From: Bacteroidota bacterium
Lineage (GTDB): Bacteria > Bacteroidota > Bacteroidia > Bacteroidales > SZUA-534
Direction: 5' to 3'
DNA: 64,000 nt
Assembly: GCA_003250355.1 (NCBI GenBank)
Contig: QKGS01000052.1
Span: 1,908-65,907, forward strand
Position numbers and translations under genes: made by a program
The notes under the pieces: generated by a model
The model's database searches: none
Told to the model about the DNA's origin: nothing
What the model saw: only the letters and a program-made list of their open reading frames with translations
In this document: positions 1 to 17,200 of the stretch, piece after piece
How the letters are laid out: each line of letters begins with the position of its first letter
Numbering within the stretch: position 1 is the stretch's first letter

Positions 1-1270
1 GAATAGCATTATTATTGTGATTTTGACCTTGTTCAATATGGGGTTTTATGGGGTTCTCAATATTAAGTTTTATGAGGTTCTCATTATTGGAACTTTCGGG
101 CTTTGCTTTTTCATTTTGCAAAAAAAACTTTTTTTTCAGGGCTTCACTTTTTTCACTTTTTTCACGGGTTGAGGTTTCAACTGGTTTTTGTTCCGGCCGT
201 GGTGCTATTTTTATTTCAAGGCTTACAGGCTGTTTTCTGAACTGTTGCCAATCCTGTTTTATTAGATAGTCGGCAATGTCGTTTCCGTTCTGTTTATCCT
301 GTTCGGGTGCTAACTTTTCCAATAAGTCGGAAACATGAAACTTTGTACCCTGCAATTTGCTTTCAATCTCTTTGGCTTTATTGCTCCATAACTCAAAGGC
401 TTTGCCGTCTTTTGATAAGTCAGGAAATAAATAAACGTCTCTACCTTTCAACGTCTGGCACTTGTTGAGGTTCAAGCTGCTTAAATTGTAAACTGCCAAC
501 CAAAGAAAGTTTTCATTGTGTTCAGGATAACCAAAATACAACGAACAATAAACGGCTGTTTTTGGGGCTTCAATTAATGCAACCGGATTGTTTTTGTATT
601 TATTCAAAAGATGTTCACCAAACAAACAGCTTACCTTTGTTTCGTTCTTATTGTATGCTTGTAACCAGTCGGGCAAAGGTTTACTGTTTCGGGTGCAATG
701 TTTTTCAATAATAGAGTGTAAAAAATCCGTTCCGGTGGTGTGGTTAGTTTCGTCAAACTGTTTTACCTGAATAGCCCTAACCTTATTTTGAATATCAATG
801 AAAGGAAATGTAATTGCCCCTTTACGATACCCATTTTTAACCGTACCCAAATTATACAATGAAATTACTTTTTCAATGTCCGATACTTCAAACGGATATT
901 TCACACGGTTCAAAAGGTTTTGTATAAATACATTCTGTTCGTACGCTGAAAGCGTTTGTTTTAAAACCTCAACGGGAATAAATACAGGTTCAGGCTTTGG
1001 CTTTCTTTTTATTTGTGGCTTGTATGGTTTCCAGTTGTTCGGTAATTCCGAACTGTTGCCCTGTTCTTTTTGCCATATCATTTTTGCGTACCCGTCTGTA
1101 TAAGGATTAATGAAATAGCCGCAATTGCTCTCACGGTCGCAACGTCCGTACTGTTCGGGTAACAATTGCCCCTTTTCGGTGTCAATGTATCGTACAAAAC
1201 GCATTTTACCACATTCAGGGCAATGGTGCTTTTTACTGCCTTTCTCTAATATGTAACGATGTTCATTCAT
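1..1270 (-). CDS. Zinc-ribbon / Toprim-like primase-type replication protein of the integrative element (3' end runs off the window)
   Basis: Frame is open from ATG at 1270-1268 to position 2; I checked the frame by hand at three places. N-terminus MNEHRYILEKGSKKHHCPECGK...GRCDRESNCGY is a 4-Cys zinc ribbon. The start lies 1 nt after the upstream gene's stop. It is missing from the ORF track because no stop lies in the window. Confidence 0.6.
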   Translation of the reverse strand, partial: MNEHRYILEKGSKKHHCPECGKMRFVRYIDTEKGQLLPEQYGRCDRESNCGYFINPYTDGYAKMIWQKEQGNSSELPNNWKPYKPQIKRKPKPEPVFIPVEVLKQTLSAYEQNVFIQNLLNRVKYPFEVSDIEKVISLYNLGTVKNGYRKGAITFPFIDIQNKVRAIQVKQFDETNHTTGTDFLHSIIEKHCTRNSKPLPDWLQAYNKNETKVSCLFGEHLLNKYKNNPVALIEAPKTAVYCSLYFGYPEHNENFLWLAVYNLSSLNLNKCQTLKGRDVYLFPDLSKDGKAFELWSNKAKEIESKLQGTKFHVSDLLEKLAPEQDKQNGNDIADYLIKQDWQQFRKQPVSLEIKIAPRPEQKPVETSTREKSEKSEALKKKFFLQNEKAKPESSNNENLIKLNIENPIKPHIEQGQNHNNNAI

Positions 1271-1271
1271 A

Positions 1272-2831
1272 TTAGTAAGGCATCTTATTATTTGTCAAAT
1301 ATGCCACATTACCCACGTTTAAACGTTCGATAATTACCCCGAAGCCTGTTAACCTTTTAATAAAGTTTGATTTGTTCACGGGTTTAAAACCGTCCTCAAT
1401 ACAAAAGGCTCTGTATTCGTTGTATAGTTCTTTTATTAATCGGTAATCGGTGGGGCTGTTTTTGTATTCGTTTTCGTCAACAAACATTTTAACACTATCG
1501 GACTGGTTTTTATATTGCTCAACTGCCTTTTGCACGGCTTCACATTCTGTAAAACGCTTTTGCTTCAATAGTCGGTTAAGCCCCTCTAATACCCAGTTAA
1601 AAACGCCTGAAAGTTCGCTTTCAATTATTTTGGTATGTAGCTGTTTATCCTGTTCATGTGGTGGTATGGTTACATCAAAAGGAACAATTAAAAACCGCCT
1701 GAAATAAGCGTTTGTATGTTCAACATCTTTGGGTAACTCATTACAGTTAAAAATAAGTTTGGCATATTGTTTTATTGTGTACGGTTGACCGTATAAGGCA
1801 CGGGCTTCAATTGGTTCACCCGAAACAATTTGTTTGAAAATTGCACTTTCAAGTTTGCCGTTTATTTCACTTGCATAGTTTACTAATTTGGTAGCTATTT
1901 GCGCCCTATACTCACCCCTTGTATTTGTAAGGTTTTCAAGTGTGAAATGGCTTATATTTTCCATTCCGATTAAAGCGTTTACAACCTCAAAGAATACGCT
2001 TTTACCATTTGCGCCCGTTCCGTACAATATCAGGGCTTTTTCTTCTTTTAGTCGGTTGTTGCCATGTTTGATAAATACAAAGCCTAAATATTCAGCTAAT
2101 ACCTTTTGACGGTCTTTATCGGGTAATACTCTGTTTAAATATTGCTCAAATAGTGGGGCTGTTGCCTGTGGGTTGTATTCAAATGGTAACTGATAAGTAA
2201 TAAAGTCCGTTCGGTTAAATGGTCTTAGTTCTGTTCCCTGTGGCTTTATTTCAAATGTTCCGTTTTGTAGGTTAATAAATACCGTGTCTTTGTCGGTTTC
2301 CGGTGTGGGTAAATATGCCGTTCCTAAAAACTGTTTGTATAATTGTTCCCTGAACTGGTAAAACCTTGCTGAAAACTTAGCAACACCCATTTTTTCGGTG
2401 GCTTCACCTAAGAACTTTTGAAAGGTTTCTTTGTCAATTTCAGCCCAGTAAGTACCGTTATACAAGTAAATAAAATCATGGTTTTTGCATAAGCCCCAAC
2501 GGTTTTTTTCTGCAACCTTTATAACGTTTTCAATTGACAATACTAAATAATGCTTTGTATTGACCTTTATTTTATCCAGTCGCTTTCTTACATCTTTTGC
2601 CTGTTCGCTTTCGGGTTCGATGCTTTCCAGTTGCTTTCTTAATTGTTTAACTTCGGGAAACGCCAACGCTTCAAAGTCCAACGGCTCAAACTGTTTTATG
2701 AGTTTATCCAGTATTTCGGTGTGTGGGGTTGGCTCTTTTTTCTTTGTAAGTTCCTTAACGTGGTTTACAAATGTTTCAGCATTTTCAAGGTCAAGGAATA
2801 CGGGGTTTATCTCTTTATTATTCATTCTCAA
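1272..2831 (-). CDS. P4-family phage/plasmid primase-helicase (D5_N-like region + SF3 NTPase)
   Basis: 519 aa. Walker A in LILYGTGANGKSVFFEVV, followed by FNCNELP and FRRFLIVPF, which is typical of the TIGR01613-type C-terminal domain. Overlaps the upstream ORF by 14 nt. Confidence 0.8.
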   Translation of the reverse strand: MRMNNKEINPVFLDLENAETFVNHVKELTKKKEPTPHTEILDKLIKQFEPLDFEALAFPEVKQLRKQLESIEPESEQAKDVRKRLDKIKVNTKHYLVLSIENVIKVAEKNRWGLCKNHDFIYLYNGTYWAEIDKETFQKFLGEATEKMGVAKFSARFYQFREQLYKQFLGTAYLPTPETDKDTVFINLQNGTFEIKPQGTELRPFNRTDFITYQLPFEYNPQATAPLFEQYLNRVLPDKDRQKVLAEYLGFVFIKHGNNRLKEEKALILYGTGANGKSVFFEVVNALIGMENISHFTLENLTNTRGEYRAQIATKLVNYASEINGKLESAIFKQIVSGEPIEARALYGQPYTIKQYAKLIFNCNELPKDVEHTNAYFRRFLIVPFDVTIPPHEQDKQLHTKIIESELSGVFNWVLEGLNRLLKQKRFTECEAVQKAVEQYKNQSDSVKMFVDENEYKNSPTDYRLIKELYNEYRAFCIEDGFKPVNKSNFIKRLTGFGVIIERLNVGNVAYLTNNKMPY

Positions 2832-3195
2832 ACATCTTTAATTGTGTATCACTTGACTTTTGCTCTTTGGGGTTGGTACTTACAAGGTGTGCAAGGTCGC
2901 CTGTATAAGGGCATCGAAATTCATCTGTTGACGAAACCAATTGCCCCAACTTTTCTAAACGCCTTTTGTATTTTGTTCCGGCTTCAACGGGAACATACAT
3001 TGCCTCACAAACTGCCTTATTTGTTGTGGTTACGTACCATAAAGCTAACTTGTACCGCCTTAACTCTGAATACTCTTTAATAAGCTGTGAAAGTGGTTTG
3101 CCCGTGCCGTTTTCAACCTGTGTTCTTATGAATTGCAGCGTAAAAGCCCTATCTTTGAACTGTCTTTTATGTAAGGGGGTGAATGGGTTACTCAT
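2818..3195 (-). CDS. Small element-encoded hypothetical protein (possible DNA-binding)
   Basis: 125-aa ORF translationally coupled on both sides: an 8-nt overlap with the HTH gene stop (ATGAGTAA) and a 14-nt overlap with the primase-helicase start. Confidence 0.5.
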   Translation of the reverse strand: MSNPFTPLHKRQFKDRAFTLQFIRTQVENGTGKPLSQLIKEYSELRRYKLALWYVTTTNKAVCEAMYVPVEAGTKYKRRLEKLGQLVSSTDEFRCPYTGDLAHLVSTNPKEQKSSDTQLKMFENE

Positions 3196-3545
3196 GTTTG
3201 CCCCCCTTCTTTTTTAGGTAGCTTTCGGCTTCAATTTCAGCGTTTGATTTTCGCTTACCTGTTTTTAACCACTCGTCTATTTCCGACTTTAAGAATACGA
3301 GATTTTTTCCATTTTTGTGGTAAGGAACTAGCCCCCTTGACACAATACTATACCATGTTGGCTTTGTGCTTTGTTCTTTTGGCAGGGTCGTACTTTATAA
3401 GTTCATCGAGGTTAAACCATTGGTCGGGCTGTTCGATGTTTTGATGTTCCTGCTTTTCGATTAACAGGCGTTTTAATTCACTAACCTCTTTAGTTAGCAT
3501 TGTTACCGCTTGGGGTAAATCATTGAAAGTTAAATTTTCAGTCAT
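3188..3545 (-). pseudogene. Excisionase-type HTH (HTH_17/MerR-like) gene split by a +1 frameshift
   Basis: The N-terminal part (3348-3545) ends ...YDPAKRTKHKANMV*. The next frame continues KPTWYSIVSRGLVPYHKNGKNLVFLKSEIDEWLKTGKRKSNAEIEAESYLKKKGGKHE and stops at 3188-3190. Deleting one copy of the 7-bp duplication restores ...DPAKRTKPTWYSIVSRG... Confidence 0.75.
3361..3374. repeat. Perfect 7-bp tandem duplication GCTTTGT GCTTTGT (ACAAAGC x2 on the coding strand)
   Basis: Read directly from the sequence at 3361-3367 and 3368-3374. It lies exactly at the frame break of the HTH gene. Confidence 0.95.
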
Positions 3546-3642
3546 AACGAAAGTATTTTTGTTTGTAATACTTTGCGAAGTACTGAAACGGGAAACCGCT
3601 TAATTCACGTAAAAAAAACGTGTTTACGGGAACTTATATTTA

Positions 3643-5262
3643 TTAGTATAATAGCATCAGTTTTTTTACTTCGTCTTTGTTTTTCTGATTTACCCTCCAA
3701 AAGTTCTTTTCCGAATACCCTTTATAATCTACAAAGCTACTCTCCCACAAGTTAAATAAAGTTTTCGCTCTTGTTCTTTGTGTATGAAAGTCTGATTTTC
3801 TCAATTCATCAAACAAATACAAAAATGAAAGTTGTGTGTAATAATCATTTGTATTTACTGTTTGTATTGGTTCAGCAATTTCAGGCACTTCAAAATTATT
3901 CTCATAAAATAATGTAGTCCACTTAATTAGTTTATCAAAGTCATTCTGATTTAAAATTTGCCTCCCTTTTCGTGGGCAATTCCCTAATAAAAAGCCTAGA
4001 TGATACCTTATTTTTTCGTAAAGTTCGTTTTCTTTCTGTTCTTCTTCTTGCTTTTCGCTCTGTTGAGGTGGCAACGTTTTAAAGTATTCCTGAAATAAAG
4101 GGGCAAAAAGGTTATTACTTGAAAAAACAGTACTCCATGCCCTGTAAAAATACCCTTGTTGTTGCCCGTTTTCAAAGGCGTTTACTATTTCATTGTTTTG
4201 GTTGGTTGTAAATCCGGTACGTAAATTAGCCCAACCATGTTTAAATAACAGGTATTCAAATACCTTATTTACATAGTCCTGCTTATCGGGAAACGGTGTT
4301 AAATAGAGATTTATTTGCGTATTGTCGAACTCATTAAAGCCATCCTGAAAACCTTTTGCATATTCTTTTAAATAGGGTATTAAATCAGCAAAATACTTTA
4401 TTGCTTTTCCATCAATAAACATTTGTCTATGACTTACCCCTGTTAACTTCCAAACTAAATCAGAACGGGAATAATAAGCCCCGTAAACAATATTTGAATA
4501 AGGGTGCAAAGCTGTTTCTTTGTTGCCTACAAAACCGGTGTCTTTCATTTTCTGAAATTCACTATCAGATAATAGGTTACTGGTAGGTAAATGATAATAT
4601 TTATAAATACTATCATCAATATCGAAGTTACTTAATAGATAATCGTGTGTTAATTCTTTGGGTACAATTTCGGATTGTTCGGTTTTGTCGAATATCCAAT
4701 TTGTTGTACCAAAGTTCAGGCGTAAATAATCTATAAAATGTTTGTTTATCAATTCCCTTTTTTCAACCGATTCGATTTTGTTCAGTTTAGTTAGTAACCA
4801 GTCTTTATAAAGAAAGTATTTAGCATAGACCTGAACTGCATTACTATTGAAATAACTAAAAACATGAGGAAAAAACGGCTTATTATCATTTTTATAATAG
4901 TCATTTGCTAACCTTGAATATTCGTATAAATCTGATTCTTTCGGGTCTGCCCACTTATTTTTAAATGTTTCAGTAGTTGAAAGTTGATTTGCCTTTTCTA
5001 TGAAGTTGTTTATTGCTGCTAATTCATCTTTTATTATCTTTTCTGTTGGTTTGCCGTATTTTTCATTGAAAAGCTTTTGCAATGTTTCAAAATATCTTTG
5101 TGCATGAAGTTTTTCAAATTGTTCAAACAATTCATCTCTATTTTGAGCTTCGGGTATTATGCTGTATTCATCGCCAATTTTGCAGCCCAACCGTTCGGCA
5201 TCTTCTTTGGTTGCTTTCCTTTTAACCCTTATTGATTGTTCGTATTTTTCTGATTCGGTCAT
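3643..5262 (-). CDS. Hypothetical 539-aa cargo protein, no domain recognised
   Basis: Long uninterrupted ORF between the xis-like gene and the integrase. No TM segment, signal peptide, Walker motif or nuclease motif seen. Rich in Y/F/N/K, with an internal acidic stretch QQSEKQEEEQKENE. Confidence 0.6.
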   Translation of the reverse strand: MTESEKYEQSIRVKRKATKEDAERLGCKIGDEYSIIPEAQNRDELFEQFEKLHAQRYFETLQKLFNEKYGKPTEKIIKDELAAINNFIEKANQLSTTETFKNKWADPKESDLYEYSRLANDYYKNDNKPFFPHVFSYFNSNAVQVYAKYFLYKDWLLTKLNKIESVEKRELINKHFIDYLRLNFGTTNWIFDKTEQSEIVPKELTHDYLLSNFDIDDSIYKYYHLPTSNLLSDSEFQKMKDTGFVGNKETALHPYSNIVYGAYYSRSDLVWKLTGVSHRQMFIDGKAIKYFADLIPYLKEYAKGFQDGFNEFDNTQINLYLTPFPDKQDYVNKVFEYLLFKHGWANLRTGFTTNQNNEIVNAFENGQQQGYFYRAWSTVFSSNNLFAPLFQEYFKTLPPQQSEKQEEEQKENELYEKIRYHLGFLLGNCPRKGRQILNQNDFDKLIKWTTLFYENNFEVPEIAEPIQTVNTNDYYTQLSFLYLFDELRKSDFHTQRTRAKTLFNLWESSFVDYKGYSEKNFWRVNQKNKDEVKKLMLLY

Positions 5263-5284
5263 TGTCTTTTATGCTTAGTAGGGT

Positions 5285-6562
5285 TTACAAATCCAGTTTA
5301 ATATTATCGGCTGCTTTGCGTTTGGCTTCGTCCACAATCTTAGCGTAAACCTGTGTTGTTTTCAGGTCTTTATGCCCTAACATTTTCGAGACGGTATAAA
5401 TATCTGTACCGTTAAATAGTTGCAGGGTAGCGAAGGTGTGGCGAAAACAATGAAACGTTATGTCTTTAGTTATTCCGGCTGCTCCAATCCATTGAAACAG
5501 GTGTTTATTGGCATAGGCTGAATATTTAAGCCCCTCAAACACCTTTTTATCCTGTTCCATGTCCTTTGGGTTTTGTGTACCCTCTGTAAAGCTGTAAGCC
5601 TGTTCTGATATTGGGAATACCTCAACACCTTTGGTTTTCTGTTGGTCGAAGTTTAAAAAGTATCCTTGACCTTCAACATAAACCAGTTCACACCAAACCA
5701 TTTTACTAATATCGGAAAAACGAAGCCCCGTTAATGCTGAAAACAACGCTGCACGTTTCAATAAATTATCATTGCACGGGGTTTTAACCAGTTTATTAAG
5801 TTCGTCAAGGGTTAAATACTCCCTTCGTGTTTCGGCTGCTTTTATAGGCTGTACTTTACTGTTGAGGTCGGTTTGTAAAATACCGTCTTTGTATGCCTGT
5901 TTTAATGTTGCCTTTACTTTATTAAAATATGAAACCGCTGAATTTTGCGAAAGTGTTGTTTTATCGCTTCGGTTGCTTTTAGTGGTTAACAGGTATTCTT
6001 TAAAGTCCTCTAAAAAACGTTCGTTGAGGTTAGCAAATGTTAACTTTCCATTGGTAAAACTTTCAAGGTAATTATAAGCAGAAACCCAGTTATCATGGTT
6101 TGAGTTTTTGCGTTTATCGGCTAACTTTCTGAAATACTCAATAAAACTTTGTTCGCCTTTTGCTTTTTCCTGTTTATCCTTTTCAATTAAACGTCTTTCT
6201 ATTTCCGTTAAGTCTGAATTTTCATTTAATTGTTTATACTTCAAAGCCTGAATATTTTCAGCTTTTTTCATTGTATTTTCATTGTGCAATTTTCGGGTTT
6301 CGTTTATTGAAACATCAGCACTATAAACGGGTATTTCTTTTACCTCACCTTTAGCATTTTTACGCTTATTGTATTTTATAGGTTCATAAACATAAAGCCC
6401 TAAAAATTCCCTTCGGGTTTCATAAATTAATTTGCCCTTTTTATTCTTTTTGGGTTCATCTAAGGGAACAGGTGGGTAAAAGTCAAGGTATAAGAATTTT
6501 TTACCCTTATCATTCGCTGATTTTTCCCGTAAAGTAACATTATAAGTATTTTTCTTTGCCAT
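5285..6562 (-). CDS. Tyrosine-type site-specific recombinase / integrase
   Basis: 425 aa. Catalytic signature LTGLRFSDI ... HCFRHTFAT ... LGHKDLKTTQVYA (R, H-x-x-R, H, Y). The long N-terminal arm/SAM-like region is typical of Bacteroidota element integrases. Confidence 0.9.
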   Translation of the reverse strand: MAKKNTYNVTLREKSANDKGKKFLYLDFYPPVPLDEPKKNKKGKLIYETRREFLGLYVYEPIKYNKRKNAKGEVKEIPVYSADVSINETRKLHNENTMKKAENIQALKYKQLNENSDLTEIERRLIEKDKQEKAKGEQSFIEYFRKLADKRKNSNHDNWVSAYNYLESFTNGKLTFANLNERFLEDFKEYLLTTKSNRSDKTTLSQNSAVSYFNKVKATLKQAYKDGILQTDLNSKVQPIKAAETRREYLTLDELNKLVKTPCNDNLLKRAALFSALTGLRFSDISKMVWCELVYVEGQGYFLNFDQQKTKGVEVFPISEQAYSFTEGTQNPKDMEQDKKVFEGLKYSAYANKHLFQWIGAAGITKDITFHCFRHTFATLQLFNGTDIYTVSKMLGHKDLKTTQVYAKIVDEAKRKAADNIKLDL

Positions 6563-6623: not shown

Positions 6624-7373
6624 TTACTCTATTCTTATTACATGGTGTTCGTCAAAGTGCTTTTTTGATATTTTACTAAACTTACCGTCTTTAGATTTCG
6701 GTATCTTAAACCGATTCACACGGCTATAAATTTGGTCTTTACTCAACCCGTATTTATTAATTATATCCTGAACCGTGTACCATTCTTTAATATGCTGTAT
6801 GTTTTTATTCTTATCAGTAAAATATTTGTCGATATGCTTTTTTGAAACAAAGGTTTTGCCATTGCTCATGGTCTTAGGCATTCGATTTTCTTTTATGATT
6901 TTAAAAACCCATGTATTACTAATATTGTATTTCTGTTTTATTTCGTCAATAGTATAAAATTCAGTAATTGGCTTTCGTTCTTTAAGCGTTGGCTTTTCGT
7001 ATGCCTGTCTGCTTTCAAACAATTCAATCAACTGATATTTAAAAAACAATACTTTCCGGTTACTCATACGCTTACCATAAATAACCCCTGAATTAAGCCA
7101 ATTATAAATAGTTTGTCGGCTTACTGACAAATACAAAGCTGCTTCGCTAACTGTTAATACATCTTTGTATTGTATGGTTTTAAGTTCCGAATAGGTATTT
7201 TCATTTACTGCCTGTGTTTCAATATTTGATTGATTAATTTTATTAGCCCTAAATATATTTTTATAGGCTTTCCCATTACATGACTTACTGCAAAACCTTG
7301 TTACTGTGGTTTTGGCTTCAAATTGCTTACCGCAATATTCACAAACTCTTAATATTGAAATATTACTACTCAT
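6624..7373 (-). CDS. Zinc-ribbon + three tandem excisionase-like HTH domains (DNA-binding protein)
   Basis: N-terminal CEYCGKQF...FCSKSC zinc ribbon. Three repeats follow of the pattern (L/Y)T(V/I)xE...Y(L/N/G)(V/I/L)Sxxx(I/V)(Y/F)...(K/H)(Y/H)(Q/I/F): LTVSEAALYLSVSRQTIYNWL, YTIDEIKQKYNISNTWVFKII and YTVQDIINKYGLSKDQIYSRV. Confidence 0.65.
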   Translation of the reverse strand: MSSNISILRVCEYCGKQFEAKTTVTRFCSKSCNGKAYKNIFRANKINQSNIETQAVNENTYSELKTIQYKDVLTVSEAALYLSVSRQTIYNWLNSGVIYGKRMSNRKVLFFKYQLIELFESRQAYEKPTLKERKPITEFYTIDEIKQKYNISNTWVFKIIKENRMPKTMSNGKTFVSKKHIDKYFTDKNKNIQHIKEWYTVQDIINKYGLSKDQIYSRVNRFKIPKSKDGKFSKISKKHFDEHHVIRIE

Positions 7374-7397
7374 TTACTTTTAATAAAGTCGCCTAAA

Positions 7398-7446
7398 ATG
7401 TCAAATATTGTAAACTATTGTACAATCATGTCAAATAATGTCAAAT
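7398..7446 (+). promoter_or_regulatory. Three direct copies of ATGTCAAAT (7398-7406, 7428-7436, 7438-7446) upstream of the triple-HTH gene
   Basis: Exact 9-mers read from the sequence, 25-73 nt upstream of the ATG at 7373. Candidate operator or arm-type sites. Confidence 0.5.
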
Positions 7447-7484
7447 TCATACACTAAAAAGACAAATAAAAAAGGGTTATTTTT

Positions 7485-7528
7485 TGTACCTCAACCCCAA
7501 AGGTACAATAAAGGTACAAATTTGTACC
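7485..7528. repeat. GGTACA/TGTACC motif cluster including the perfect 16-bp palindrome GGTACAAATTTGTACC (7513-7528)
   Basis: TGTACC at 7485-7490 and GGTACA at 7502-7507 form an inverted pair. The palindrome is at 7513-7528. Candidate core or att-type recombinase site at the element edge. Confidence 0.5.
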
Positions 7529-7572
7529 TAATAAACGAATAATAACACAAAATAAATTTAACTTAGCAATAT

Positions 7573-7597
7573 TAAAAAAGCCCTATTTATAGGGCTC
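7573..7597 (-). terminator. Rho-independent terminator of mnmE
   Basis: The minus strand reads AGCCCTA-TAAA-TAGGGCT followed by TTTTTT, 46 nt after the mnmE stop. Confidence 0.75.
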
Positions 7598-7642
7598 AAT
7601 AGTAGTTTTTAATATGTTTAATGATTATTTATTTTGTGTCGG

Positions 7643-9022
7643 TTACTTTCCGATACAGAACTGACCAAAAATATTCCCCAAAACTTCATCAGTAGTAATT
7701 TCCTCCCCTGTAATCCCTGCCAAATAATGTATTGCTTCCCTTATATCCATTGCAAGAAAATCATGTGTTACACCCAAATCCATTCCCAAAACAGCACGCT
7801 CTAGCGATTGCTTAGACAATTCCAAAGCCTCCAAATGCCTCACATTTGAAACTATTACACTATTATTTTCGAGTTGTTCAATACCTGAAATACTATTCAA
7901 TAAATCAAATAATTTATCAATATTATAATACGACTTAGCCGATATTGATATAGTTGCAAATGCTTTATCTCTAAAATCGTAAGAACAAACCTCATTATTA
8001 TCAGCCTTATTTAAAACAACAATTATTTTTTTGTCGCCATCTGTTTTATCAATAAGTTTTGTTAGTTCATGTTCAATTTCTTGTAAAGTCTTTTTTATAT
8101 CAAACATTGCCAGTATAATACTAGCTTGCTCAATTTTACGGTACGTTCGTTCTATCCCTATACTCTCTATTACATCGCTGGTTTCTCTTAAACCAGCAGT
8201 GTCAATAAATCGGTAAGTGATTCCGTTAAAAACAAAAGTATCTTCAATAGCATCTCTGGTTGTTCCGGCAATGTCTGATACTATTGCTTTTTCATCACCT
8301 AAAATTGCATTTAGCAACGTCGATTTTCCAACATTTGGTTCACCTACAATTGCAACAGGTATTCCATTTTTAATTGCATTACCAAGTTTAAAAGAGCCTA
8401 TTAGCTTATCAATTAACTTGATAAGCTTATCTACAATACTTTTTAATTGTGTTCTGTCAGCAAACTCTACATCTTCTTCGCTAAAGTCTAGTTCAAGTTC
8501 AATTAAAGAAATAAATTGCAATAGCTCCTGTCTCAGTAAAGCCAATTCATTTGAAATGCCTCCCCGCATTTGATTCATTGCAATTTTATGAGCAGCCTCT
8601 GTCGACGACGAAATTAAGTCAGATACTGCTTCCGCTTGCGAAAGATCCATCTTTCCATTCAAATATGCCCGCTGCGTAAACTCTCCCGGGCTAGCAAGTC
8701 GTGCGCCATTTTTTATTAATAGATGCAATATCTTTTGCTGTATAAATACTGAGCCATGACAAGTTATCTCAACAATATCCTCACCGGTATATGTTCCGGG
8801 AGATTTAAATAACGAAAGCATCACTTCGTCAATCAATATATTATTGTCAATAATTCGTCCAAAATGGACAGTATGACTTAACTCATTCTCCAATATTCGG
8901 GAACCCGATTTATAGCTAAATACTTTTGAGGCTATTAATAATGCTTCATTCCCTGTTATTCTAACAATAGCCATTGCACCTTGCCCTGTGGCTGTAGATA
9001 TTGCACATATTGTATCTCTCAT
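7643..9022 (-). CDS. mnmE: tRNA modification GTPase MnmE (TrmE)
   Basis: 459 aa. G-domain GEPNVGKSTLLN, DTAGLRE, NKAD. C-terminal FCIGK motif. Confidence 0.95.
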   Translation of the reverse strand: MRDTICAISTATGQGAMAIVRITGNEALLIASKVFSYKSGSRILENELSHTVHFGRIIDNNILIDEVMLSLFKSPGTYTGEDIVEITCHGSVFIQQKILHLLIKNGARLASPGEFTQRAYLNGKMDLSQAEAVSDLISSSTEAAHKIAMNQMRGGISNELALLRQELLQFISLIELELDFSEEDVEFADRTQLKSIVDKLIKLIDKLIGSFKLGNAIKNGIPVAIVGEPNVGKSTLLNAILGDEKAIVSDIAGTTRDAIEDTFVFNGITYRFIDTAGLRETSDVIESIGIERTYRKIEQASIILAMFDIKKTLQEIEHELTKLIDKTDGDKKIIVVLNKADNNEVCSYDFRDKAFATISISAKSYYNIDKLFDLLNSISGIEQLENNSVIVSNVRHLEALELSKQSLERAVLGMDLGVTHDFLAMDIREAIHYLAGITGEEITTDEVLGNIFGQFCIGK

Positions 9023-14252: not shown

Positions 14253-17200
14253 ATGTCGGCACTCACTATATACAAGGCTTCGGCAGGTTCAGGTAAAACA
14301 TTTACGCTTGCTCGCGAATACCTTAAAATAATGTTTAGTTCCGATAAAGCTTTTGCAGGAATATTGGCTGTAACTTTTACTAAGAAAGCCACAGCCGAAA
14401 TGTCGGAAAGAATTCTTTCCGAATTGTATCTCCTTGCGTCGGGCAATGAGTCAGGGCACTTAAGTTCATTAATAGAGGAATATAAATTATCGGAAAATGA
14501 GGTTAGGCAAAAAGCCGATTTTTATCTAAAACGGATACTTCACAATTATCATTGGTTCAATATAAGTACTATCGATAGCTTTCTGCAGGGTATTTTAAAA
14601 TCATTTACACGCGAAGTGGGATTAAATGCCGGGTTCAACGTTGAGTTGAATCAGCATATGGTTATTGAAGAAGCCGTAGCAATAATGTTCGACAAACTTC
14701 ATGAAAATGAAAATTTGCGGCGTTGGTTATACGACTTTGCAAAAGATAAACTCGATGCCGGTAAAAGCTGGGATATACAAAAAGAACTTGTTGAATTTGC
14801 CAAAACAGCATTGAAAGATCATTTTTATAGCTTATCGCAAAATGAAATAAATGAAATAGCTGATATTGAGAAGTTTGCTCAGTACAAAAAAGAGCTTCAA
14901 GAAATAATTAATAGTTTTTCTCAAGAAGTTATAAATATAGGAATAGAAGCAGTTAGGTTAATTGAACAACACAATCTTTGTGTAGATGATTTCAATAATG
15001 GAAAAACCGGTGTAGCCGGTTATATGCAAAAGCTTAGCACGTTAAAGTTTTTTGAGATTGGAAAAGAGCAAATACCCAAAGCCAGAGTTAGAAATGCTGC
15101 AAATTCCGACGATGGCATAACCGGCTGGGTAAAGAAAAAATCGCCAAAGGAATTGGAAATTCAGGCTTGTGTAAACAATGGATTACATAAGCTTGTACTA
15201 AATGTGGTAGATTTGTTTGATAATAAATCGGAAGATTTTTTTACCGCAAGAGCAATTTTAAAAGAGATTGACTCATATGCAATTCTTGTTGAAATATTCA
15301 AAGAGGTAATAAATTATTGTACAGAACAAAATATATTCCTATTGTCAATGTCATCGCCATTGCTGGCAAATATTGTAGGTAAAGACGATACTTCCTTTAT
15401 ATATGAAAAAACAGGGCAATTCCTTAAAAGCTTCATGATAGATGAATTTCAGGATACTTCGTTAGTGCAGTGGAATAATTTCTTCCCTTTGGTATTAAAC
15501 TCGATTTCTGAAAATAACCGCTCGCTGGTAGTTGGCGATATTAAACAGTCGATATACCGATTTAGAAATGGTGACTGGACTTTACTCGACAGCCAAATTA
15601 AAAATCAGTTTGCGGGTTATGGAGTAAACGAAGAGACATTGCCTAATAACTGGCGTAGCTTTGGTAATGTGGTTGAATTTAACAACTGCTTATTTGAAAC
15701 GTCTCCGCAAATACTTCAAAATTATTTTAACTCCGGTTTGCCCGAAGAATTTATAAATGAATTACATACCGATACGTTTATACGAATATTTAATAATTCG
15801 AGCCAGTTAATTCCACAAGAGAAAAAAATAGGCAAGGGAAAAGTAACGGTTAATTTTTGCAATAAAACAAAAGAAGACGATATTGAAAGTTTTGAAAATC
15901 AATACGATGAGTTTTTGTCCAAAATGGACAATGCCATACTTGAGTTAAATGAAGCAGGTTATGCTCCGGGGCAAATAGCCATTTTGGTGCGAACAGGTAA
16001 AGAGGGTGCTATGGTTGCCGATTATTTAATGAAAAAGTCACTTGAGCAACCTCACAAAGCAGATGTTTACAGTTTTATCTCTTCCGACTCGGTATTTTTA
16101 AAATCATCGGTTGTTATACAGGCAATAGTTTCGATATTACAATTAGTAGAATTGCCCGATAATAGCTTATTTAAAGCCAATGTACTTTTTCTGACAAATA
16201 AATTAAACGGAAATAAAATATCGGTATCTGATTTATTAATTACTGAAAATATTTTGGACAATGACCATTTTCTAAGTTTACTACCCTCTCAGTTAGTAGA
16301 ATTGTTTGAAGAGTTGAAGCATAAGTCATTGTTAGAGTCGGTTTATTCAATTAACGGAGTATTTGAAATTCTGGGATACGTTACTGAAACTGATTATCCA
16401 TTTATAAATACATTCTTCGACCAAATACTAGTATTAGTAAATAAAGGAAAGTTTGACTCTACCTCGTTTTTGCAATGGTGGTCAGAAAACGGCCATGTAT
16501 ATCCGGTACAGATATCGGAACAAAAAAATTCTATGCGCATTATTACTATTCATAAATCGAAGGGACTTGAGTTTGATGCAGTAATTATGCCATTTGTAAC
16601 ATGGGATATGGGAATGAAAAACCGAAATGTAATTTGGTGCGAAACCAAAGGTGTTTTTAACAAAATATCAAGAGTGCCGGTTAATGCAGTAAAAGAACTG
16701 GAATACACCCAATTTCGCAATAAATATTACAATGAGTTACTTCTTACTTATGTCGATAATATTAATGTGTTATATGTTGCTGTTACCCGCGCCAAAAAAG
16801 CAATGTATATCAATGCTCTGTTACCTTCCAATGAAGATAAAATTAGCAATTCAGGGGCATTACTATATAAATCGATAATTGATAATACAATACTAAATAA
16901 TTATTTTAATAAAGATAGCTTAGCTTTTGTTTATGGAGAATTAGAACCGCAGGAAAAAGTATCTGACAACAAAGAGAATACCCCTGTAAAAGCAGAAAGA
17001 GTTCAGAGTAAAACCAATAAGCTAAATGTGCGGATTCATGATATTGAATACTATAAAACAGAACCGGAAAATGACAAAGCCGGAAAAGGACGTATTTTCC
17101 ATAAAATAATGGAAGAGATTAAATACATTTCAGACATTGACAATACTATAAATAAAATGGTTATTTATGGCGAACTGTCAGAAAAAGAATCGCTACAAAT

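What the first reader, a model, noticed from the sequence alone, without database searches (positions are those of the whole stretch)
3643..5262. Orphan 539-aa ORF in the xis-int cargo slot of a P4-like element
This is the only gene in the element without a replication, recombination or DNA-binding signature. It occupies the position between the regulatory/xis module and the integrase.

In P4-like satellites the integrase-adjacent cargo position is an established hotspot for anti-phage and other accessory genes.

I could not recognise any catalytic, nucleotide-binding, TM or secretion motif. If it is functional, it would be a single-gene system of an undescribed family.
Basis: inference. Interest (0 to 1): 0.65.

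Follow-up and report, generated by a model that had tools for sequence, protein, structure and literature searches.

The report
Hypervariable integrase-partner gene of mnmE islands
The 539-aa "orphan" is one allele of a constant but very variable gene that sits between integrase and excisionase in a phylum-wide family of small Bacteroidota mobile elements, and it looks more like the element's own DNA-binding control protein than like anti-phage cargo.

Summary
The ORF is real: 3643-5262 on the minus strand, 539 aa. It has no hit in Pfam, NCBIfam, PADLOC, PHROGs or PDB sequences, and two confident AlphaFold models match no known fold.

It is not an orphan. It has 447 relative clusters and is a mosaic of three modules.

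The element is not P4-like. It is an integrative element of about 8 kb related to Bacteroides Tn4555, and it sits in the last ~19 nt of mnmE.

In 72 related elements from across Bacteroidota, the gap between integrase and excisionase almost always holds one co-directional gene. 67 of 75 such proteins form one similarity network.

These proteins share one plan:
- a variable, acidic head;
- a hinge (LPPQ) that is also conserved as DNA (TTRCCACCTCAA);
- a variable, basic tail of about 120 aa.

Heads and tails assort almost independently, giving 59 combinations in 75 proteins. The tail type tracks short repeats lying between the gene's stop codon and the excisionase gene.

Real defence genes do occasionally sit beside it: a Type ISP restriction enzyme in one locus and a reverse transcriptase in another.

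My best reading (about 45%) is an element-specific regulator comparable to an immunity repressor or SaPI Stl. In this reading the tail binds operators upstream of xis and the head senses a signal. A defence or exclusion payload remains a live rival.

The parts
7643..9022 (-). mnmE (tRNA modification GTPase), the host gene whose 3' end is the integration target
   Evidence: Pfam TrmE_N, MnmE_helical and MMR_HSR1. mnmE precedes the element in nearly all of the 80 related loci.
7643..7660 (-). att core: the last 18 nt of mnmE (ttctgtatcggaaagtaa). This is the left junction of the element. The right junction lies beyond the left edge of the window.
   Evidence: The same core (TTTTTGTATCGGAAAGTAA) is directly repeated 8053, 8300 and 8621 nt apart in L002, L022 and L041. 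The window sequence was read.
7374..7642 (-). Element end region, with GGTACAAA/TTTGTACC repeats (about 7480-7530) and the tnpA promoter region
   Evidence: Sequence read. The same TTTGTACC repeats occur at both ends of the L002 and L022 elements (families D5 and D2).
6624..7373 (-). TnpA-like protein: a zinc ribbon plus three HTH_17 units
   Evidence: Pfam HTH_17 in 3 stretches. Full-length BLASTP match to Tn4555 TnpA, E=4e-29.
5285..6562 (-). Tyrosine integrase
   Evidence: Pfam Phage_int_SAM_5 and Phage_integrase. 33% identity to Tn4555 Int over the full length, E=2e-61. 59-75% identity to the integrases of 80 mnmE-linked loci.
5263..5284 (-). Conserved int-X spacer (ACCCTACTAAGCATAAAAGACA, followed by the ATG)
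   Evidence: The consensus CCACTTAAAGCATAAAAGACAA(A)ATG is shared by most of 77 loci. Similarity stops right after the ATG. A relative in run X4 keeps the spacer and diverges after the ATG.
4759..5262 (-). Protein X, module N (aa 1-168)
   Evidence: It occurs on its own in 29 other proteins, at varying positions.
4075..4758 (-). Protein X, module M (aa 169-396), the commonest head type
   Evidence: Found in 128 proteins, mostly as the N-terminus of 340-390-aa proteins with unrelated tails. 22 invariant residues, mostly aromatic.
4063..4074 (-). Hinge LPPQ (TTGCCACCTCAA)
   Evidence: The same 12 nt, synonymous positions included, occur in 26 genes with unrelated flanks. A minor contig in run X2 diverges exactly at 4062.
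3643..4062 (-). Protein X, linker plus basic tail module C (aa 401-539) and the stop codon
   Evidence: Module C occurs at the C-terminus of 59 other proteins. Tail pI is 8.6 here and 9.15 at the family median. Tail type co-varies with Xis.
3546..3642 (-). X-xis spacer, with the inverted repeat ACACGT-N7-ACGTGA (about 3600-3623), CCGTxAA repeats and a likely xis promoter
   Evidence: Sequence read. The inverted repeat is unique within the element. Spacers of elements with the same tail type share these motifs, and other tail types carry different repeats.
3188..3545 (-). Excisionase-type HTH_17 gene, split in this assembly by a 7-nt tandem duplication (3361-3374)
   Evidence: Two frames of 65 aa and 51 aa. 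The second frame matches HTH_17 positions 23-49 of 51. A contig of run X3 lacks the 7 nt.
2818..3195 (-). Small 125-aa protein of the backbone
   Evidence: Homologues follow xis in many related loci (label P5small). No family hit.
1272..2831 (-). Primase-helicase (D5_N, DUF5906, P4-family primase C-terminal domain)
   Evidence: TIGR01613, 8e-58. Replaced by a DUF3987 protein, or by Rep_1, in some relatives.
2..1270 (-). Zn_ribbon_16 + DUF6371 protein (PG0870-like), cut by the window edge
   Evidence: The same protein type is found in Tn4555 and in nearly all relatives.

Best explanation
**Shown**
- The ORF is one allele of a constant, very variable gene that belongs to the integrase-excisionase module of a phylum-wide family of small Bacteroidota integrative elements. 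These elements are about 8 kb, are related to Tn4555, and target the 3' end of mnmE.
- The protein has two exchangeable parts. One is a variable acidic head, here made of two modules, N and M. The other is a variable basic tail of about 120 aa.
- The parts are joined by an LPPQ hinge whose DNA sequence is itself conserved.
- Heads and tails recombine at two conserved junctions: the int-X spacer and the hinge.

**Inferred mechanism**
- The tail is a sequence-specific DNA-binding domain. It recognises the tail-type-specific repeats that lie directly behind its own gene and in front of the xis promoter.
- Through this binding the protein controls the excision and replication operon (xis, small protein, primase-helicase, DUF6371).
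- The head senses or binds a variable partner, such as a helper element, a phage or a host signal, and switches the tail's activity.
- Functionally this is the element's immunity or master-control protein, comparable to phage CI, ICEBs1 ImmR or SaPI Stl.
- Diversity would be driven by elements that compete for, and stack at, the same attachment site and need control circuits that do not cross-react.
For: **Constant presence and position**
- 72 loci retrieved through the integrase alone have one co-directional ORF of 200-660 aa in the gap, starting about 20 nt after the int stop.
- 67 of 75 such proteins form one BLASTP network through local head or tail matches.
- The gene is linked to int and xis, not to the replication module. 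It occurs with D5_N primase, with DUF3987 and with Rep_1, and behind integrases only 21% identical to this one.

**Architecture**
- Head pI has a median of 5.6 and tail pI a median of 9.15.
- The hinge LPPQ lies 106-154 aa from the C-terminus in about 30 of 75 proteins.
- 26 hinges read TTRCCACCTCAA, with one Pro codon used in 88-95% of cases. In conserved Pro columns of the integrase the mean is 62%.

**Independent assortment**
- About 33 head types and 22 tail types give 59 combinations.
- A second tail allele that diverges exactly after the hinge, and a relative that diverges right after the ATG, are seen in metagenome contigs.

**Tail and DNA**
- Tail type co-varies with the neighbouring Xis (adjusted mutual information 0.53, p<0.0005). 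Head against Int gives 0.07.
- Each tail type has its own repeats in the X-xis spacer. Examples are 2-3 copies of TAACCAGTT at a 10-nt period, confined to that spacer, and ACACGT-N7-ACGTGA in the window type.
- Xis proteins of most tail types remain in one cluster.

**Defence**
- No family member hits a defence model.
Against: - No DNA-binding domain is recognised by any HMM, and neither AlphaFold model matches a known DNA-binding fold.
- Co-variation of the tail with Xis and with the spacer repeats could be plain physical linkage, since they are adjacent.
- The repeats could be bound by Xis, by the primase-helicase as origin iterons, or by a host factor.
- The gene runs in the same direction as both int and xis. 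Classical immunity modules are divergent.
- Extreme diversity with shuffling at conserved flanks is also what defence or exclusion genes show, and the same gap takes real defence genes.
- In L097 a homologue persists next to mnmE and an AbiE pair without any integrase. That fits a host-useful gene.
- In a related Riemerella island, integrase plus attP alone sufficed for integration and excision (PMC6764341).
Confidence: 0.45

Rival explanations
1. Defence, anti-defence or exclusion payload. The gene is the one host-directed or competitor-directed function of an otherwise minimal element. It would be a single-gene polymorphic system whose head and tail diversify in an arms race with phages, with other mnmE-targeting elements, or with host defences.
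For: - Diversity is extreme and combinatorial, with conserved flanks.
- The same gap holds a Type ISP restriction enzyme in L066 and a reverse transcriptase in L009.
- In L097 the gene is kept next to AbiE without an integrase.
- The complete elements carry no other cargo.
- The folds are unknown.
Against: - It is always present, always one gene, and always in the same orientation, about 20 nt behind int. It is found across integrase clades and replication modules. That is unlike hotspot cargo.
- No PADLOC hit in 74 members apart from the inserted restriction enzyme.
- No enzyme-like conserved polar motif. Invariant residues of module M are mostly aromatic.
- No homologue in the phage or plasmid collections.
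Confidence: 0.22
2. Origin-recognition or replication-specificity adaptor. The tail binds iterons in the spacer, which would be the element's origin, and recruits the primase-helicase, as iteron-binding plasmid Rep proteins do. Tail and iteron diversity would set incompatibility between co-resident elements.
For: - Short tandem repeats at a 10-nt period lie next to the gene and track the tail type.
- The tail is basic.
- The elements replicate with a primase-helicase that has no separately identified origin-binding partner.
Against: - The gene travels with int and xis, not with the replication module, which is swapped among D5_N, DUF3987 and Rep_1. Tail similarity does not track helicase similarity (0.39 against 0.35).
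- Primase-helicases of the P4 family usually bind their own origin (established knowledge of the P4 alpha protein).
- Large, unrelated heads are not expected for a Rep adaptor.
Confidence: 0.13
3. Architectural cofactor of site-specific recombination. It would be a directionality or efficiency factor acting with Int and Xis at the att sites, as reported for the gene in the same position of NBU1 (Orf2). The review PMC5704250 says that Tn4555 needs one more element-encoded protein, besides Int and a directionality factor, for optimal excision. It does not name that protein.
For: - Same position as Tn4555 TnpC and the pBUN2 homologue.
- Tight coupling to int.
- Co-variation with Xis.
- The review states that Tn4555 needs an additional element-encoded protein for optimal excision and that NBU1 excision needs further genes (PMC5704250).
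Against: - Homology to TnpC was not demonstrated (BLASTP E=0.037; hhalign probability 4%).
- The type-specific repeats lie about 4 kb from the att core, in the middle of the element, and not in the att arms.
- Integrases are 59-75% identical while heads and tails are unrelated. A dedicated Int cofactor should co-vary with Int, and it does not.
Confidence: 0.1

Closest known systems
Tn4555 (Bacteroides mobilizable transposon) and its tnpC gene
   Same: - Same gene order: TnpA (zinc ribbon plus HTH_17 repeats), Int, a gene of unknown function, Xis (HTH_17), an ATPase or helicase, then a DUF6371 protein.
- TnpA and Int are homologous over their full length (E=4e-29 and 2e-61).
- TnpC also has a basic-looking C-terminal domain behind a low-complexity linker.
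   Different: - TnpC is 285 aa with two N-terminal membrane helices. Its similarity to this tail is not significant.
- Tn4555 carries a Mob relaxase and cfxA, and inserts with low specificity guided by TnpA (PMC5704250).
- The elements here are about 8 kb, have no relaxase and no cargo, and sit precisely in the mnmE 3' end.
SaPI Stl, ICEBs1 ImmR and phage CI master repressors (immunity modules)
   Same: - Next to int and xis, always present, and highly polymorphic and mosaic between related elements.
- Two-part protein with a linker.
- Adjacent to short repeats in front of the excision and replication operon.

This is a resemblance in logic, argued and from established knowledge of those systems.
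   Different: - No recognisable HTH domain and no sequence or fold similarity.
- Co-directional with xis instead of divergent.
- The putative DNA-binding part is C-terminal.
- Repression has not been shown.
P4-like satellites and their integrase-proximal defence hotspot
   Same: - Small integrative replicon with a P4-family primase-helicase domain.
- Defence genes can be found near the integrase.
   Different: - No P4 genes other than the primase domain, and no capsid-redirecting genes in complete relatives.
- Different phylum and a different integrase type.
- The gap is filled by one family, not by unrelated cassettes.
- No X homologue in IMG/VR.
SGI1/MGI-type islands at the 3' end of trmE (mnmE) in Gammaproteobacteria
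   Same: They use the same chromosomal target, the last bases of mnmE (earlier scan notes e1-3610248 and e1-4308783).
   Different: Unrelated gene content and phylum. No counterpart of this gene is known to me there (own knowledge, not tested).
Pfam DUF6043
   Same: Two slot proteins match it weakly. In L035 the match covers the tail (residues 117-210 against profile positions 195-280 of 314). This DUF is therefore probably built from members of the same mosaic family.
   Different: P0001 itself does not match, and the DUF has no assigned function.

Membership tests
P4-like phage satellite | P4 alpha-type primase-helicase | tested here: met
   TIGR01613 primase_Cterm at 8e-58, plus D5_N and DUF5906, in the neighbouring gene 1272-2831. 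Relatives swap it for DUF3987 or Rep_1.
P4-like phage satellite | Helper-exploiting genes (capsid size and transactivation: sid, psu, delta, epsilon) and packaging by a helper phage | tested here: not met
   Complete 8.0-8.6-kb relatives hold only tnpA, int, X, xis, a small ORF, a helicase, DUF6371 and 1-3 small ORFs without family hits. No X homologue in IMG/VR, and only 4 small contigs there carry a related integrase.
Tn4555-type integrative mobilizable element | TnpA-Int-(gene)-Xis-ATPase-DUF6371 order, with homologous TnpA and Int | tested here: met
   The order is conserved in 80 loci.
Tn4555-type integrative mobilizable element | Own relaxase (MobA) and oriT | tested here: not met
   No relaxase in the complete relatives L002, L003 and L001. 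The right end of the window's own element lies outside the window.
Tn4555 TnpC family | Sequence homology to TnpC (two membrane helices, a linker and a C-terminal domain) | tested here: inconclusive
   BLASTP E=0.037 over the tail. hhalign E=0.009, probability 4%. hhalign between tail clusters gives E=0.008-0.022. No N-terminal membrane helices like TnpC's are evident in the P0001 sequence or in the AF2 secondary structure; no TM predictor was run.
Known anti-phage defence systems (PADLOC 2.0) | Match to a defence protein model | tested here: not met
   No hit for P0001. Among 74 slot proteins, only the inserted Type ISP enzyme of L066 and one marginal AbiQ hit.
Known anti-phage defence systems (PADLOC 2.0) | Protection against phage when expressed | not testable with these tools
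   Needs a plaque assay.
Immunity-type master repressors (CI, ImmR, Stl) | Recognisable DNA-binding domain (HTH) | tested here: not met
   No HTH family in Pfam or NCBIfam. No fold match for two models. The C0 tail model has a three-helix arrangement, but without a significant match.
Immunity-type master repressors (CI, ImmR, Stl) | Cognate operator repeats at the controlled promoter, differing between immunity types | tested here: inconclusive
   Tail-type-specific repeats in the X-xis spacer. Binding is not shown, and linkage is not excluded.

The most novel reading that the evidence does not exclude
The int-xis gap of these elements is a two-cassette diversification locus. Head cassettes and tail-plus-operator cassettes are exchanged between elements at two dedicated, nucleotide-conserved junctions: the spacer CCACTTAAAGCATAAAAGACAAATG and the hinge TTRCCACCTCAA. 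This produces a combinatorial repertoire of control or immunity specificities across the whole phylum Bacteroidota, built from protein folds that have no known relatives.
Probability: 0.22. Interest if true: 0.8.

Novelty: new variant of a known kind. Interest (0 to 1): 0.6.

Why it matters
Small integrative elements at mnmE are common across Bacteroidota, from gut to marine and vent bacteria. Their biology is barely described beyond Tn4555 and NBU1, and the gene in this position has never been explained.

This work shows that the position holds one constant, modular, very variable protein with conserved exchange junctions. That turns an unannotated 'hypothetical' into a defined family with a testable function.

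If the tail and its repeats form a cognate DNA-binding pair, the family offers many natural, mutually orthogonal protein-operator pairs for Bacteroidota genetics. It would also explain how stacked elements at one attachment site avoid cross-talk. If the gene turns out to be a defence or exclusion gene, it would be a new fold family with built-in modular diversification.

Tried and rejected
**Domain, sequence and fold searches**
- Pfam, NCBIfam, PADLOC and PHROGs on P0001 found nothing.
- PDB sequence search with the single protein and with the module M profile found nothing.
- Foldseek of the P0001 model against PDB and BFVD, and of the P0043 model against PDB, gave no match with E below 0.4.
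- Pfam on 109 homologues of varied architecture gave only one DUF6043 hit and one marginal PDDEXK_9 hit.
- tblastn against the phage and plasmid collections gave no match.

**Homology tests between modules**
- Homology to Tn4555 TnpC is only marginal, so I did not claim it.
- I tested whether all alternative tails are one diverged domain. Only some clusters link: the window type links with two others at 89-95% probability, and most do not.

**Satellite reading**
- No X homologue in IMG/VR, and only four small contigs there carry a related integrase. I therefore dropped a phage-satellite reading as the lead.

**Searches that failed or were unavailable**
- A scan with the mosaic alignment A1 failed for lack of conserved columns.
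The right end of this element could therefore not be seen.
- The primary Tn4555 and NBU1 excision papers are not held.
- No RNA runs hold the locus, so expression is untested.
Full report
**1. The observation**

Coordinates 3643-5262 hold an ATG-started ORF of 539 aa on the minus strand. It starts 22 nt after the stop of a tyrosine integrase gene (5285-6562). It ends 97 nt before an HTH_17 excisionase-type gene (3188-3545).

Pfam, NCBIfam, PADLOC, PHROGs and PDB sequence searches give nothing. Logan contigs of two metagenome runs cover 4135-5384 without a difference, at the same depth as the integrase. The window comes from a hydrothermal-vent metagenome bin.

**2. The element is a relative of Tn4555, not of P4**

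On the minus strand the order is:

| Gene | Coordinates |
|---|---|
| mnmE | 7643-9022 |
| Protein with a zinc ribbon and three HTH_17 units | 6624-7373 |
| Integrase | 5285-6562 |
| The ORF | 3643-5262 |
| xis | 3188-3545 |
| 125-aa protein | 2818-3195 |
| D5_N/DUF5906/P4-type primase-helicase | 1272-2831 |
| Zn_ribbon_16 + DUF6371 protein, cut by the window edge | 2-1270 |

These assignments rest.

A paper that lists the Tn4555 gene block pointed to the DUF6371 link (PMC13183296). A circular 10,057-bp Tn4555 copy (CP103138.1, locus L008) has the same order: an HTH protein (TnpA), integrase, 'transposase' (TnpC), excisionase, AAA ATPase and DUF6371. It then carries a mobilization protein and cfxA.

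The window's zinc-ribbon protein matches Tn4555 TnpA over its full length (E=4e-29). The integrase matches Tn4555 Int at 33% identity (E=2e-61). Only the primase-helicase domain is of the P4 family.

**3. A phylum-wide family at the end of mnmE**

I scanned one genome per species with the integrase alone. This returned 241 relatives, and the best 80 were kept. Their integrases are 59-75% identical. They come from Flavobacteriales, Chitinophagales, Cytophagales, Sphingobacteriales and Bacteroidales.

Nearly all have the same order: mnmE, TnpA, Int, a gap, Xis, a small protein, a D5_N primase or DUF3987, then DUF6371.

In L002, L022 and L041 the last ~19 nt of mnmE (TTTTTGTATCGGAAAGTAA) are repeated 8053, 8300 and 8621 nt downstream. 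The elements are therefore about 8 kb. They carry no relaxase or recognisable cargo.

In the window the core is at 7643-7660. The other end lies beyond the left edge.

Earlier scan notes on other genomes describe the same mnmE-targeting islands and stacks of their junctions (e1-3610248, e1-4308783). They are consistent with this picture but are not independent evidence.

**4. The gap always holds one gene of one mosaic family**

In 72 loci the gap between the int stop and the xis start is 0.7-2 kb. It holds, with few exceptions, a single plus-strand ORF of 200-660 aa that starts about 20 nt after int.

67 of 75 such proteins, P0001 included, join one BLASTP network at E<1e-4. They join through local similarity at the N-terminal or the C-terminal part, and rarely over the full length.

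I split each protein into its last 125 aa and the rest. This gives about 22 tail types and 33 head types, in 59 combinations.

P0001 itself has three modules:

| Module | Residues | Where else it occurs |
|---|---|---|
| N | 1-168 | 29 other proteins, at varying positions |
| M | 169-396 | The commonest head; usually the N-terminus of 340-390-aa proteins with unrelated tails |
| C | about 409-539 | The C-terminus of 59 other proteins |

P0001 is the only N-M-C combination among the roughly 200 relatives held. An exhaustive profile-free search found 447 clusters at 50% identity. 'Orphan' is therefore wrong. The gene is a unique combination of common modules.

Homologues looked up by exact sequence lie directly behind a tyrosine integrase in 8 of 10 distinct contexts (9 look-ups and the window). 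These include integrases only 21% identical to this one, and an element whose replication gene is a rolling-circle Rep_1. There are two exceptions:
- One sits next to mnmE and an AbiE pair, with no integrase.
- One sits in an unrelated neighbourhood.

The gene therefore belongs with int and xis, not with the replication module. An earlier scan note (e1-1223582) reached the same view for another genome.

**5. Architecture and junctions**

Heads are acidic (median pI 5.6) and tails are basic (median 9.15). In P0001 the values are 6.2 and 5.7 for N and M, and 8.6 for C.

Between head and tail lies a hinge, LPPQ followed by (P/Q)(I/T)xxKxKP. It sits 106-154 aa from the C-terminus in about 30 of 75 proteins.

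At the DNA level the hinge reads TT(A/G)CCACCTCAA in 26 genes whose flanks are unrelated. The two Pro codons are a single codon in 88-95% of cases and Gln is always CAA. In conserved Pro columns of the same loci's integrases the mean is 62% and the maximum 79%.

The left boundary is also conserved as DNA. The int stop is followed by CCACTTAAAGCATAAAAGACAA(A)ATG in most of 77 loci, and similarity ends right after the ATG.

Metagenome contigs show both junctions in use:
- A minor contig in run X2 (depth 3.4 against 43) matches the end of module M and the hinge (4062-4164). It then diverges exactly after the hinge, reading on as LPPQ-PINTGNDSIK.
- A relative in run X4, whose int-tnpA contigs differ at about 6% of positions, keeps the spacer and diverges after the ATG.

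Elements that share one attachment site and can stack there would recombine readily at such conserved stretches. That last step is inference.

**6. Structure**

| Model | pLDDT | pTM | Content | Foldseek result |
|---|---|---|---|---|
| P0001 | 91.4 | 0.64 | Mostly helical, three domains, a disordered stretch at 401-409 | No match better than E=0.4 in PDB or BFVD |
| P0043 | 90.1 | - | Module M plus a different tail | No match in PDB |

Invariant residues of module M are mostly aromatic or glycine, with no obvious catalytic set. Among 183 scanned relatives and slot proteins, the only domain hits were:
- weak DUF6043, which covers a tail in L035;
- one LRR;
- marginal PDDEXK_9 and AbiQ;
- the inserted Type ISP enzyme.

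**7. What the tail goes with**

Pairs of elements with similar tails have clearly more similar Xis proteins (normalised score 0.65 against 0.42). Their Int, TnpA or helicase proteins are not more similar. Head and tail similarity are almost independent.

With Xis clustered finely, the adjusted mutual information between tail type and Xis type is 0.53 (p<0.0005). It is 0.12 for head against Xis and 0.07 for head against Int.

The spacer between the gene's stop and xis carries short repeats that are specific for the tail type:

| Tail type | Repeats in the X-xis spacer |
|---|---|
| C2 (window type; T0) | ACACGT-N7-ACGTGA plus CCGTxAA repeats, shared with L003, L015, L021, L022 and L071; the inverted repeat is unique within the element |
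| C0 | Two or three TAACCAGTT units at a 10-nt period, confined to that spacer |
| C5 | Two GCCCCYNA units, 10 nt apart |
| C3 | ACCCC and GGGGTAT inverted repeats |

Xis proteins of most tail types still fall in one cluster at a looser threshold. The repeats therefore follow the tail more closely than they follow Xis.

**8. Interpretation**

*Shown.* The gene is a constant, integrase-coupled, two-part, combinatorially variable component of the recombination module.

*Inferred.* The basic tail binds the adjacent repeats and so controls the xis-replication operon. The head provides a variable sensing or interaction surface. The logic resembles phage immunity regions, ICEBs1 ImmR and SaPI Stl. 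Those are also next to int and xis, always present, and the most mosaic part of their elements.

I put this at about 45%.

*Main weaknesses.*
- No DNA-binding fold is recognised.
- Linkage alone could produce the co-variation.
- The gene is co-directional with xis.

*Rivals.*

| Rival | Probability | For | Against |
|---|---|---|---|
| Defence, anti-defence or exclusion payload | about 22% | The diversity, the occasional true defence genes in the same gap, and the integrase-less remnant | Universal presence, fixed position, and no defence-model hits |
| Iteron-binding replication adaptor | about 13% | - | The association with int and xis rather than with the replication module |
| Architectural recombination cofactor, like the genes in this position of NBU1 and Tn4555 | about 10% | The review PMC5704250 notes an extra protein needed for optimal Tn4555 excision and extra genes for NBU1 excision | The primary papers were not available |

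Homology of the tail to Tn4555 TnpC is marginal, so I do not file the protein under TnpC.

**9. Verdict**

- The 'anti-phage cargo in a P4-like hotspot' reading is only partly supported.
- The finding is more interesting as a family than as a single gene. It is a dark, modular protein with DNA-level conserved exchange junctions, present in a widespread but little-described class of Bacteroidota elements.
- Novelty: a new variant of a known kind, namely an accessory gene of Tn4555/NBU-type integrative elements.
- Interest: 0.6.

Noticed in passing
window 3188-3545 (duplication at 3361-3374): The excisionase-type gene is split by a 7-nt tandem duplication (acaaagc acaaagc on the coding strand). 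The second frame still matches the C-terminal half of HTH_17. A contig from a smaller run of the same sample (X3) lacks the 7 nt. An intact allele therefore exists in the community, or the duplication is an assembly or strain variant.
   Followed up: yes
window 6624-7528: The 249-aa zinc-ribbon protein with three HTH_17 units is a full-length homologue of Tn4555 TnpA, the protein that directs target choice in Tn4555 (E=4e-29). Its upstream region carries TTGACA...TACAAT promoter-like pairs and ATGTCAAAT repeats.
   Followed up: partly
L066:10156-15087: In a Flavobacterium sp. MedPE-SWcel MAG, a 1643-aa Type ISP restriction-modification enzyme lies between the integrase and the slot-family gene. 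The int-proximal gap can therefore take real defence cargo in addition to the constant gene.
   Followed up: partly
L009:5605-6462 (Bacteroides uniformis pBUN2): A reverse-transcriptase family gene and a small ORF lie on the opposite strand, between the TnpC-like gene and xis of a Tn4555-like element. That element also carries MobC, a relaxase and a type I R-M system.
   Followed up: no
L097:5518-10138: mnmE is followed directly by a slot-family homologue (367 aa) and an AbiEi/AbiEii pair, with no TnpA or integrase. This looks like a decayed element that kept this gene.
   Followed up: no
L002:8095-8121 and 15951-15977; window about 7480-7530: TTTGTACC(T)TT repeats occur just inside both ends of the elements. 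They are likely arm-type binding sites for Int or TnpA.
   Followed up: no
L099:7001-10283: The same int, slot-gene and HTH_17 module is joined to a rolling-circle Rep_1 gene, followed by type I R-M and Abi_2 genes. The recombination module is therefore combined with different replication modules.
   Followed up: partly
window 4135 and 5355-5384: Logan contigs of two runs break at the conserved end of module M and inside the 3' end of the integrase. This fits assembly-graph branching caused by other related elements in the same community.
   Followed up: no
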